A stretch of DNA of 64,000 nucleotides, taken from NCBI RefSeq assembly GCF_013122565.1, contig NZ_CP053258.1. The stretch is one strand, 5' to 3'. Under the pieces are notes generated by a model. It was not told the origin of the DNA and searched no databases. It saw nothing but the letters and a program-made list of their open reading frames with translations. Origin of the DNA: Escherichia coli (GTDB lineage: Bacteria > Pseudomonadota > Gammaproteobacteria > Enterobacterales > Enterobacteriaceae). The translations under genes and the position numbers were made by a program. This document shows positions 63,319 to 63,469 of the stretch, piece after piece (within the stretch, counting starts at the first letter, position 1; the number at the start of each line of letters is the position of its first letter).

Positions 63319-63360
63319 TGCTGGATAGCACCGTCAAGCTAAATTCCGTACTGAACGGTC

Positions 63361-63396
63361 CCCTCGCCCCTCTGGGGAGAGGGTTAGGGTGAGGGG
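63361..63396. repeat. GC-rich palindromic intergenic repeat (ccctcgcccctctggggagagggttagggtgagggg)
   Basis: Inverted CCCTC/GAGGG arms read from the sequence. Confidence 0.5.
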
Positions 63397-63431
63397 AATG
63401 TGCGGGATGTAAAATTCAGTGCGCCAGCATC

Positions 63432-63467
63432 GCCGGATGCGATGCTGGCGCATCTTATCCGGCCTAC
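63432..63467. repeat. canonical REP element (gccggatgcgatgctggcgcatcttatccggcctac)
   Basis: Match to REP consensus. Confidence 0.8.
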
Positions 63468-63469
63468 GG

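What the first reader, a model, noticed from the sequence alone, without database searches (positions are those of the whole stretch)
63340..63469. Composite intergenic repeat (GC-rich CCCTC/GAGGG palindrome plus canonical REP) between yhfS and frlR
Two distinct repeat families are juxtaposed in a 130-bp convergent intergenic region. The GC-rich element is not a simple REP and may belong to another interspersed repeat class.
Basis: seen in the sequence. Interest (0 to 1): 0.25.

Follow-up and report, generated by a model that had tools for sequence, protein, structure and literature searches.

The report
Known BoxC repeat beside a REP
The GC-rich sequence between yhfS and frlR is a copy of BoxC, a known E. 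coli repeat already catalogued at this exact site, lying next to an ordinary REP repeat; the locus is unremarkable, but following the BoxC family showed that it consistently flanks genes for a small nuclease of unknown function (DUF559).

Summary
The 151-bp spacer between the convergent genes yhfS and frlR holds two unrelated repeats.

- **BoxC.** The 37-mer at 63360-63396 is a BoxC element, also called PIT or TMECO. It has three blocks: CCCTCGCCC, loop, GGGAGAGGG, TTA, GGGTGAGGG. The orthologous K-12 site is TMECO no. 15, type A mm, in Holder et al. 2015. An identical 36-mer lies upstream of fabI. E. coli genomes hold a median of 19 matching places.
- **REP.** 63432-63467 is one canonical REP. 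Its loop is extended into a perfect 14-bp palindrome that, with a T-run, looks like a terminator for frlR.
- **Not a composite unit.** A REP lies near only 3 of 18 K-12 BoxC loci, each with a different spacer.

The locus is structurally polymorphic:
- O157:H7 lacks a 7.6-kb block that ends at the BoxC edge.
- One strain has a 52-nt deletion of the BoxC core.
- Some strains lack the frl operon together with both repeats.

A lead I did not find in the literature: BoxC-like elements flank DUF559 (YcjD-like, Vsr-fold) nuclease genes across phyla, usually as [sense BoxC]-gene-[antisense BoxC]. This resembles REP and its RAYT transposase, and suggests that solitary copies such as this one are orphan ends.

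The parts
62233..63318 (+). yhfS coding sequence; its stop codon forms the left edge of the spacer
   Evidence: 361-aa ORF. Annotated as yhfS in matching genomes.
63341..63405 (+). Full BoxC unit: the core plus its family-conserved 5' flank and its 3' flank (approximate edges)
   Evidence: The 16 type-A copies share a 5' flank (A-rich, then G.GC.CGaACGGTC) and a 3' flank (GAAcAg...). The RNA fold is -37.1 kcal/mol, z -4.5.
63360..63396 (+). BoxC / PIT / TMECO core, type A with one mismatch. Block 1 CCCTCGCCC at 63361-63369, loop 63370-63374, block 2 GGGAGAGGG at 63375-63383, loop TTA 63384-63386, block 3 GGGTGAGGG at 63387-63395.
   Evidence: Fits the published consensus. The ortholog is TMECO no. 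15. Median of 19 places per E. coli genome.
63397..63419 (.). Locus-specific spacer between BoxC and the REP region; it supplies the run of T on the frlR-sense strand
   Evidence: Not conserved among BoxC copies. Reads CTGAATTTTA on the - strand.
63420..63452 (-). Perfect 14-bp palindrome (arms 63420-63433 and 63439-63452, 5-nt loop) that overlaps the REP. On the frlR-sense strand it is followed by a T-run and looks like a terminator.
   Evidence: Inverted repeat I1, 100% complementary. The only terminator-like site in 63100-63700, although shuffles average 0.8 such sites. It dominates the predicted fold on both strands, about -32.5 kcal/mol, z about -5 to -6.
63432..63467 (+). Single REP (repetitive extragenic palindrome): GCCGGATG head, imperfect stem, CTTATCCGGCCTAC tail
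   Evidence: Inverted repeat I2. Exact tail match. Weak, sub-threshold match to the REP-derived Rfam family naRNA4. The same segment matches other loci in genomes that lack this locus.
63470..64000 (-). 3' part of frlR, cut by the window end; its stop codon forms the right edge of the spacer
   Evidence: ORF. Annotated as frlR.

Best explanation
The interval is a chance juxtaposition of two known, non-coding, structured interspersed repeats of enterobacteria, lying in the 3' spacer of two convergent genes.

**Part 1: the BoxC copy.** It is a solitary BoxC element (= PIT = TMECO no. 15, type A mm).
- Shown: it belongs to a family of about 20 intergenic copies.
- From the literature: as an isolated single strand, the type-A-mm class of oligonucleotide folds into a very stable hairpin/triplex. 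The family showed no promoter or terminator activity, and no triplex was detected in vivo.
- Inferred: this copy has no dedicated function for yhfS or frlR. It is an orphan, non-autonomous copy of a selfish-type element. Its visible effect is structural, because it marks a junction prone to rearrangement.
- Shown here: three structural alleles have break points at or inside it.

**Part 2: the REP.** It is one REP whose loop has been extended into a perfect 14-bp palindrome.
- Inferred: with the adjacent U-run, this hairpin is the likely terminator and 3'-end protector of the frlR (frl operon) transcript.

**Where BoxC comes from (inferred, new).** BoxC elements are the inverted-repeat ends of small units that encode a DUF559 (YcjD-like, Vsr-fold) nuclease, arranged as [sense BoxC]-gene-[antisense BoxC]. 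Pairs and solitary copies such as this one would be gene-less derivatives, much as REPs relate to their RAYT transposase.
For: **Identity**
- Exact fit to the TMECO consensus, and listed as TMECO no. 15.
- The same 36-mer lies at the fabI/ycjD locus as TMECO no. 9.
- Copy number. BoxC is named in E. coli repeat surveys.

**REP**
-.

**Not a composite unit**
- A REP lies near 3 of 18 BoxC loci, with different spacers.

**Structure and terminator**
-.

**Rearrangement-prone junction**
- In O157:H7, trpS abuts the BoxC. The 7.6-kb yhfZ-yhfS block (window 55750-63354) is missing, and homology resumes at ACGGTC.
- MS1685 has a 52-nt deletion that removes the core.
- M3 lacks the frl operon, the BoxC and the REP.
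- This agrees with Holder et al..

**DUF559 link**
- 5 of 120 BoxC loci from distant taxa carry a YcjD homolog within 100 nt or less, usually with a BoxC on both sides.
- In 7 loci chosen by the gene, 9 of 12 BoxC-like hits lie in the 3.2% of sequence within 150 nt of the gene (P = 6e-12).
- Of 150 diverse DUF559 representatives found with a domain-only profile, 50 carry BoxC-translation peptides next to the domain. Shuffled C-terminal tails gave a mean of 0.37 hits against 38 observed C-tail hits; N-extensions were not shuffled in that test.
- Orientation is biased as [sense]-gene-[antisense] (Fisher P = 7e-7).
- 67 of the 120 closest YcjD homologs have PSPxPSP, the translation of an antisense type-B BoxC, in their last 30 residues; 56 of them end exactly on it.
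- The gene sits at four different chromosomal sites in E. coli, Enterobacter/Phytobacter (two neighbouring sites next to yggN) and Klebsiella. In the three non-E. coli loci its stop codon lies inside an antisense type-B BoxC with a sense type-A BoxC further downstream; in E. coli ycjD ends in a degenerate BoxC-like hairpin, with an intact BoxC about 170 nt downstream.
- 4 of 5 K-12 BoxC pairs are sense-spacer-antisense, always type A with type B.
Against: **On function**
- No experiment bears on this copy.
- The terminator call is only a consensus match. One such site is about what shuffles give (0.8 expected).
- BoxC elements had no terminator or promoter activity in published tests.

**On the DUF559 model**
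- Association does not show that the nuclease acts on BoxC.
- The reverse direction fits equally well: the gene may home into pre-existing BoxC sites.
- I found no clean empty site or target duplication. The alternative adk-hemH allele is a replacement of the whole spacer.
- O157:H7 lacks ycjD yet keeps about 15 BoxC places.
- Most BoxC copies (115 of 120 sampled) have no DUF559 gene nearby.
- Enterobacterial DUF559 genes lack the upstream sense copy.
Confidence: 0.72

Rival explanations
1. BoxC is a functional DNA device. Its G-rich strand folds into an intrastrand triplex during replication or transcription and so induces local breaks or slippage. Cells keep it as an adaptive source of variation (the Holder et al. 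hypothesis). On this view the yhfS-frlR copy is there to make this junction variable.
For: - The class of oligonucleotide that includes the K-12 allele's sequence (type A mm) forms a triplex with a Tm of about 74 C in vitro.
- TMECO loci are more rearranged than control loci.
- At this locus I found three structural alleles with break points at or inside the BoxC.
Against: - No triplex footprint was seen in vivo, and duplex DNA wins once the complementary strand is present.
- Variability can equally be explained if accessory gene blocks and selfish repeats both accumulate at permissive junctions.
- Triplex chemistry does not explain why the loop bases (TTA) and the flanks are conserved across phyla.
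- It also does not explain why the elements bracket one gene family.
Confidence: 0.15
2. The whole spacer is an RNA-level 3' UTR module. The BoxC hairpin and the REP hairpin protect the yhfS and frlR mRNAs from 3' exonucleases, or terminate both convergent transcripts, and are kept for that reason.
For: - Both strands fold much better than shuffles: -78.4 kcal/mol, z -5.9 on + and -65 kcal/mol, z -5.1 on -.
- The REP-derived palindrome with a T-run matches a terminator on the frlR strand.
- REPs are known mRNA 3' stabilisers (established knowledge).
- 7 of the 18 K-12 BoxC loci are convergent spacers.
Against: - PIT/BoxC elements showed no terminator activity and no effect on RNA polymerase.
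- No T-run follows the BoxC on either strand.
- 9 of 18 K-12 loci lie between tandem genes and 2 between divergent genes, including upstream of genes.
- Strains that lack the BoxC core (MS1685), or lack both elements (M3), keep the neighbouring genes intact.
Confidence: 0.15
3. BoxC plus REP form one composite mobile or repeated unit that spreads as a whole.
For: In two K-12 loci (no. 15 and no. 23, fimH-gntP) a REP follows a sense BoxC in the same orientation, with its tail 53-59 nt away. Some strains carry three REPs next to the zntA-tusA BoxC.
Against: - 15 of the 18 K-12 BoxC loci have no REP within 200 nt.
- The spacers at no. 15 and no. 23 are unrelated in sequence.
- A search with the whole spacer finds the two halves separately elsewhere.
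Confidence: 0.03

Closest known systems
BoxC (Bergler et al. 1992; Bachellier et al.) = PIT element (Hoyne/Maher 2000) = TMECO (Holder et al. 2015, PMC4666352)
   Same: Same sequence, same three-block layout and same intergenic habit. This very site is TMECO no. 15, type A mm. The window allele's 36-mer is identical to TMECO nos. 9, 16, 19 and 22.
   Different: Nothing essential. The window allele differs from the K-12 allele by one base in loop 1 (CTCT against CTTT) and by 3' flank substitutions.
REP / PU elements and BIMEs of E. coli
   Same: The right-hand element has the REP head, an imperfect stem and the CTTATCCGGCCTAC tail. It sits after the stop codons of convergent genes.
   Different: It is a single REP, not a BIME pair. 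The sequence upstream of it mirrors the REP loop, creating a perfect 14-bp palindrome that out-competes the canonical REP stem in predicted folds.
REP-RAYT / REPIN systems (a REP-associated tyrosine transposase flanked by its own REPs)
   Same: This is what the BoxC family seems to work like. A single-copy or low-copy nuclease gene is bracketed by inverted copies of the repeat. Many gene-less solitary and paired copies lie elsewhere in intergenic DNA. Two subtypes alternate within pairs: A/B here, Y/Z in BIMEs.
   Different: The associated protein is a PD-(D/E)XK Vsr-fold DUF559 nuclease, not an IS200-like Y1 transposase. No activity on the repeat has been shown. BoxC copy numbers are about ten times lower than REP in E. 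coli. The BoxC core is nearly identical across phyla, whereas (from general knowledge, not tested here) REP sequences are lineage-specific.
Vsr-fold homing endonucleases (I-Bth0305I family) and Vsr
   Same: YcjD/DUF559 is classified with Vsr and with a group I intron homing endonuclease in the same PD-(D/E)XK clade. The closest solved structure is 3hrl, 'endonuclease-like protein'.
   Different: DUF559 genes here are free-standing, not inside introns or inteins. They are flanked by complete inverted repeats rather than by the two halves of a split target.
MITEs (miniature inverted-repeat transposable elements)
   Same: K-12 BoxC pairs (sense A, a 16-27-nt spacer, antisense B) look like an internally deleted version of [BoxC]-DUF559-[BoxC].
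   Different: No target-site duplication and no clean empty site was found. No transposase is involved.

Membership tests
BoxC / PIT / TMECO | Sequence fits CCCTCNCCC-N3-6-GGGNGAGGG-N3-GGGNGAGGG[G/T/C] | tested here: met
   Regex match at 63361-63395, followed by G at 63396. The consensus is quoted from the paper.
BoxC / PIT / TMECO | Multicopy and interspersed in the E. coli chromosome (about 20-33 copies) | tested here: met
   Median of 19 places per genome in 5425 genomes. All 23 K-12 copies were re-found at the published coordinates.
BoxC / PIT / TMECO | Always intergenic | tested here: met
   It lies between the yhfS and frlR stop codons. All 18 K-12 loci are intergenic.
BoxC / PIT / TMECO | This site is catalogued as a member | tested here: met
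   TMECO no. 15 at MG1655 3,504,892-3,504,857 corresponds to L001 6858-6894, the ortholog of window 63360-63396.
BoxC / PIT / TMECO | The isolated G-rich strand forms an intrastrand triplex | not testable with these tools
   Published CD/NMR data exist for the type A mm class, Tm 74 C. Nearest-neighbour folding here shows only the hairpin component.
REP (PU) element | Head GCC(G/T)GATG, imperfect palindromic stem, tail CTTATC(C/A)GGCCTAC | tested here: met
   Sequence at 63432-63467. Stem I2 is 86% complementary. The tail matches exactly.
REP (PU) element | Highly repeated and extragenic | tested here: met
   Tail motif: 4 matches in the window against 0.24 expected. The REP segment alone matches other loci in genomes that lack this locus.
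BIME (mosaic of two or more inverted REPs) | At least two REPs in alternating orientation | tested here: not met
   Only one REP tail lies in the spacer. The upstream arm at 63420-63433 copies only the REP loop.
naRNA4 / REP325 (Rfam RF02564) | Score at or above the gathering threshold (59.5 bits) | tested here: not met
   30.5 bits on + and 25.1 bits on -. The match reflects shared REP sequence only.
Intrinsic terminator (for frlR) | GC-rich hairpin followed directly by a U-run; transcript 3' end mapped there | tested here: inconclusive
   Consensus match on the - strand: 14-bp stem plus CTGAATTTTA. One site is no more than shuffles give. No transcript data are available.
Nuclease-associated repeat system (REP-RAYT-like), proposed for BoxC-DUF559 | The repeat is significantly concentrated at the gene, on both sides, in inverted orientation, in many lineages | tested here: met
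   5 loci; P = 6e-12; 50 of 150 representatives; orientation, P = 7e-7; three enterobacterial loci outside E. coli.
Nuclease-associated repeat system (REP-RAYT-like), proposed for BoxC-DUF559 | The protein binds, cuts or mobilises the repeat | not testable with these tools
   No biochemical or genetic data were found.

The most novel reading that the evidence does not exclude
BoxC / TMECO 'triplex' repeats are the cis elements of a widespread selfish unit built around a DUF559 (YcjD-like, Vsr-fold) nuclease: [sense BoxC]-DUF559-[antisense BoxC]. The many solitary and paired BoxC copies, including the yhfS-frlR one, would be gene-less derivatives or targets of that nuclease. This would explain three things. 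First, why the same 22-37-nt sequence recurs across bacterial phyla. Second, why pairs always combine type A with type B. Third, why BoxC loci are rearrangement-prone. It would also give DUF559, with more than 50,000 representative sequences, its first function.
Probability: 0.45. Interest if true: 0.7.

Novelty: already known. Interest (0 to 1): 0.3.

Why it matters
The finding as given does not matter much. It re-discovers BoxC (TMECO no. 15) next to a REP, both of them catalogued E. coli repeats.

The BoxC family is a different matter. It has had no accepted origin or function since 1992, and its near-identity across phyla is unexplained. If its tight, oriented association with DUF559 nuclease genes reflects a real enzyme-substrate or element-end relationship, two things follow. 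The BoxC question becomes directly testable with one protein and one oligonucleotide. One of the largest uncharacterised bacterial nuclease families would also gain a candidate role.

Tried and rejected
1. **Rfam scan of the spacer.** It gave only a sub-threshold REP-derived naRNA4 match and nothing for BoxC.
2. **Composite BoxC+REP unit.** Rejected: 3 of 18 loci, with unrelated spacers.
3. **Clean empty site or target duplication, to test MITE-like insertion.** At adk-hemH, about half of E. coli genomes carry a completely different 51-nt spacer instead of the 155-nt BoxC spacer. That is a replacement, not an excision footprint.
4. **Recurrent transposase-like neighbour.** I clustered 836 ORFs near 123 BoxC sites. 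No transposase emerged; the large clusters were generic paralog families such as ABC-F. The only meaningful small cluster was DUF559.
5. **Conserved outer stem around the core.** The 9-bp stem predicted here (ATTCCGTAC/GTGCGGGAT) is specific to this locus. The family flanks are conserved in sequence but are not generally complementary. It is not claimed as a feature.
6. **BoxC 5' flank derived from the ycjD 3' coding end.** GTACTGAACGGTC resembles GAACTGAACCGCCGGTC. The stretch is too short to test, and the ycjD end is better read as a rearranged antisense type-B copy. I left this as unproven.
7. **First REP pattern search.** It used the wrong spacing and found nothing. It was replaced by the tail motif.
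8. **K-12 RefSeq annotation.** The copy held by the tool lists no repeat features at these loci, so it gave no help.
9. **Per-genome correlation of ycjD presence with BoxC copy number.** The tools return only sampled rows, so this could not be done. The anecdotes point both ways: B2 strains lack ycjD and have 1-5 copies, while O157:H7 lacks ycjD and has about 15.

Full report
**1. What is at the coordinates**

The window is E. coli. The spacer is 100% identical to strain ATCC 8739. yhfS (+) ends at 63318 and frlR (-) ends at 63470, leaving a 151-bp convergent spacer. It contains:
- the 37-mer CCCCTCGCCCCTCTGGGGAGAGGGTTAGGGTGAGGGG at 63360-63396;
- after 23 unrelated bases, the stretch TGCGCCAGCATCGCCGGATGCGATGCTGGCGCATCTTATCCGGCCTAC at 63420-63467.

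The 37-mer occurs once in the 64-kb window, with none expected by chance.

**2. Identity of the GC-rich element**

A 55-nt query around the 37-mer matches 5425 of 5426 complete E. coli genomes. The median is 19 places per genome, with a range of 2-35, almost all chromosomal. Other copies lie in other intergenic spacers: mrcB-hrpB, zntA-tusA, lptG-yjgR and tldD-aaeR.

The literature names this family three ways:
- **BoxC**, 56 bp, 22-33 copies in E. coli repeat surveys;
- **PIT**, 'potential intrastrand triplex' element;
- **TMECO** (Holder et al. 2015, PMC4666352).

The published consensus is CCCTCNCCC-N3-6-GGGNGAGGG-N3-GGGNGAGGG. Table 1 of that paper lists 23 MG1655 copies. No. 15 (3,504,892-3,504,857, type A mm) is the K-12 ortholog of this site. 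No. 9, upstream of fabI, has exactly the window's 36-mer. From memory, not from a paper I could read, Bergler et al. 1992 named 'box C' in that envM/fabI region. I re-found all 23 copies with the consensus.

**3. Anatomy**

The element is not a two-arm palindrome. It has one C-block and two G-blocks, separated by a variable loop and a fixed TTA loop; TTA defines type A and CCG defines type B. Block 1 carries G where a perfect complement of block 2 would have T, which is the 'mm' subtype.

Aligning the 16 type-A copies shows conservation beyond the core: a 5' flank (A-rich, then G.GC.CGaACGGTC) and a 3' flank (GAAcAg...).

The yhfS-sense RNA folds to -37.1 kcal/mol (z -4.5) and the opposite strand folds less well.

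**4. The REP**

63432-63467 has the REP head, an imperfect stem and an exact CTTATCCGGCCTAC tail. It gives only a sub-threshold match to the REP-derived Rfam family naRNA4.

Upstream bases 63420-63433 mirror the REP loop and create a perfect 14-bp palindrome. This palindrome dominates the predicted folds. On the frlR-sense strand it is followed by CTGAATTTTA, the only terminator-like site in the region. I read it as the probable frlR terminator or 3' protector. That is an inference: one such site is no more than shuffles give.

**5. Composite or coincidence**

In K-12, a REP tail lies within 200 nt of a BoxC at 3 of 18 loci (nos. 15, 19 and 23), with unrelated spacers. By gene orientation, 7 BoxC loci are convergent, 9 tandem and 2 divergent. 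Both families simply tolerate gene 3' ends, so the juxtaposition is coincidental.

**6. The locus is structurally polymorphic**

Only 2861 of 5425 genomes carry both genes with the full spacer. The other alleles are:
- **O157:H7.** trpS abuts the BoxC. The 7.6-kb yhfZ-yhfS block (window 55750-63354) is absent, and homology resumes at ACGGTC, the BoxC 5' edge.
- **Strain MS1685.** A 52-nt deletion removes the BoxC core but keeps its 5' flank and the REP.
- **Strain M3 and many others.** The frl operon and both repeats are absent, with the break immediately after the yhfS stop codon.

This agrees with the published claim that TMECO loci are unusually variable. It does not show that the BoxC causes the variability.

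**7. What is known about function**

According to Holder et al. and the work they cite:
- the isolated strand forms a very stable triplex, with a Tm of 70-82 C;
- no in vivo footprint was seen;
- there is no promoter or terminator activity and no effect on RNA polymerase;
- no pattern was found in the flanking genes.

**8. Following the family further**

Matches came from Pseudomonas, Bradyrhizobium, Boseaceae, Contendobacter, Archangium, Desulfobulbaceae and others. Every full-length match has a block 1 upstream, and some share the E. coli-like 5' flank.

Clustering the ORFs near these 123 sites gave no transposase. It did give a small cluster of YcjD-like DUF559 proteins. tblastn found such a gene in 5 of the 120 loci. 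In each case BoxC-like elements lie within 100 nt, usually on both sides, abutting the start codon and overlapping the stop codon.

In E. coli K-12 the one DUF559 gene I identified, ycjD, ends in a degenerate BoxC hairpin. It is followed by a duplicated ycjD 3' end with a decayed BoxC, and then by the intact BoxC no. 9.

**9. Testing from the gene side**

- **Closest homologs.** 67 of the 120 closest YcjD homologs carry PSPxPSP in their last 30 residues, which is the translation of an antisense type-B BoxC; 56 end exactly on it.
- **Different chromosomal sites.** In Enterobacter, Phytobacter and Klebsiella the gene sits at different sites, none of them the E. coli one. Each time its stop codon lies inside an antisense type-B BoxC, with a sense type-A BoxC 10-190 nt downstream.
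- **Diverse representatives.** A profile of the domain alone, with the tails removed, found 50,667 representative proteins. Of the best 150, 50 carry strict BoxC-translation peptides next to the domain. None occur inside the domain, and shuffled C-terminal tails gave a mean of 0.37 hits against 38 observed C-tail hits.
- **Orientation.** C-terminal tails are mostly antisense-type (27 against 6) and N-terminal extensions mostly sense-type (21 against 4), Fisher P = 7e-7. This gives the architecture [sense BoxC]-DUF559-[antisense BoxC].
- **Proteins without the peptide signature.** All five with available DNA had BoxC-like elements, often lineage-specific variants, just outside the ORF.
- **Concentration at the gene.** Over seven gene-selected loci, 9 of 12 BoxC-like hairpins fall in the 3.2% of sequence within 150 nt of the gene (P = 6e-12).
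- **Independent hint.** A survey of programmed inversions lists 'DUF559 domain-containing protein' as enriched among targets, with an odds ratio of 14.

YcjD is a PD-(D/E)XK Vsr-fold protein. It is classified with Vsr and with a homing endonuclease, and its closest solved structure is 3hrl. None of the papers in the held library that mention DUF559, YcjD or related terms links them to BoxC.

**10. Interpretation**

- **Shown.** The identity of both repeats, their copy numbers, the allelic structure of the locus, and a strong, oriented physical association between BoxC-like repeats and DUF559 genes.
- **Inferred.** The yhfS-frlR copy is an orphan with no dedicated local role. The REP palindrome terminates frlR. 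BoxC pairs and solitary copies are gene-less derivatives of DUF559 units, or possibly their targets. K-12 pairs (sense A, a 16-27-nt spacer, antisense B, in 4 of 5 cases) look like such units without the gene.
- **Against or unresolved.** There is no evidence of enzymatic action. No clean empty site was found. O157:H7 lacks ycjD but keeps about 15 copies. The enterobacterial genes lack the upstream copy.

**11. Verdict**

The finding is a correct observation of already-known elements, and this exact site is catalogued. The locus itself is ordinary. The DUF559-BoxC association is the only part that may be new and deserves follow-up.

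Noticed in passing
L091, L113, L126, L127, L144, L146, L149-L156; K-12 L006 21150-21830: DUF559 (YcjD-like, Vsr-fold) nuclease genes are bracketed by BoxC-like three-block repeats across distant bacteria, typically as [sense BoxC]-gene-[antisense BoxC]. 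In many genes the stop codon lies inside the repeat, giving C-termini such as ...LPSPRPSP. I found no paper in the library that describes this.
   Followed up: yes
L026-L145 (genome-contig scan): The exact 22-mer GGGAGAGGGTTAGGGTGAGGGG, always with a CCCTC(T/G)CCC block a few bases upstream, recurs in Pseudomonas, Bradyrhizobium, Boseaceae, Contendobacter, Archangium, Desulfobulbaceae and others. There are often dozens per genome, with lineage-specific flanks.
   Followed up: partly
window 55750-63354 vs L022 (O157:H7): The 7.6-kb yhfZ-yhfS gene block is an insertion/deletion polymorphism. In O157:H7 the trpS stop codon is followed, after 15 unique bases, directly by the BoxC. The right break point therefore coincides with the BoxC 5' edge.
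   Followed up: partly
L024 1600-1710 (strain MS1685), aligned to window 63366-63417: An allele with a 52-nt deletion removes the BoxC core and the spacer but keeps the BoxC 5' flank and the REP. Both deletion ends share the dinucleotide TC.
   Followed up: partly
L023 3101-3206 (strain M3): Many E. coli strains lack the whole frl operon, so yhfS faces yhfL. Their 106-bp spacer has neither a BoxC nor a REP, but contains a different small hairpin (ACGCCCTCGG...CCAGAGGGCGT).
   Followed up: no
window 63420-63452: The REP loop sequence is mirrored upstream, producing a perfect 14-bp palindrome that overlaps the canonical REP stem. O157:H7 carries two substitutions in it, and both keep G-U pairing on the + strand RNA only.
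   Followed up: partly
K-12 L006 21150-21830: ycjD with its downstream BoxC cluster is present in 3376 of 5426 E. coli genomes. It is absent from O157:H7 and from B2 strains such as Nissle 1917. Several strains that lack it have only 1-5 BoxC places, whereas O157:H7 has about 15.
   Followed up: partly
L010 1021-1255 vs L025: At adk-hemH, about half of E. coli genomes have a 155-nt spacer that contains a BoxC. The other half have an unrelated 51-nt spacer with a different hairpin. The whole spacer has been replaced, rather than a repeat inserted or excised.
   Followed up: partly
L154 1864-2090 (Klebsiella quasipneumoniae): Downstream of the DUF559 gene, a unit of about 60 nt (GAGAGGGAGAAAGAGAGTCC.CACGCAGATTCCATAACCGCACCGAACGGTTCCCTCTCCCTCAGC) is repeated in tandem 2-3 times. 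The array lies between the antisense type-B BoxC and the sense type-A BoxC.
   Followed up: no
window 3123-3185 and 27795-27808: There are further REP-tail matches in the window. Two at 3123-3185, in opposite orientation, may form a BIME-like pair. I did not examine them.
   Followed up: no
K-12 L008 1060-1100 (yagA-yagE, CP4-6 prophage): TMECO no. 3 lies inside the cryptic prophage CP4-6. It is preceded by a two-block hairpin, CCCCAAAGGGGAGAGGGGACTGCACCGAGCC, that resembles the sequence at the ycjD stop codon.
   Followed up: no
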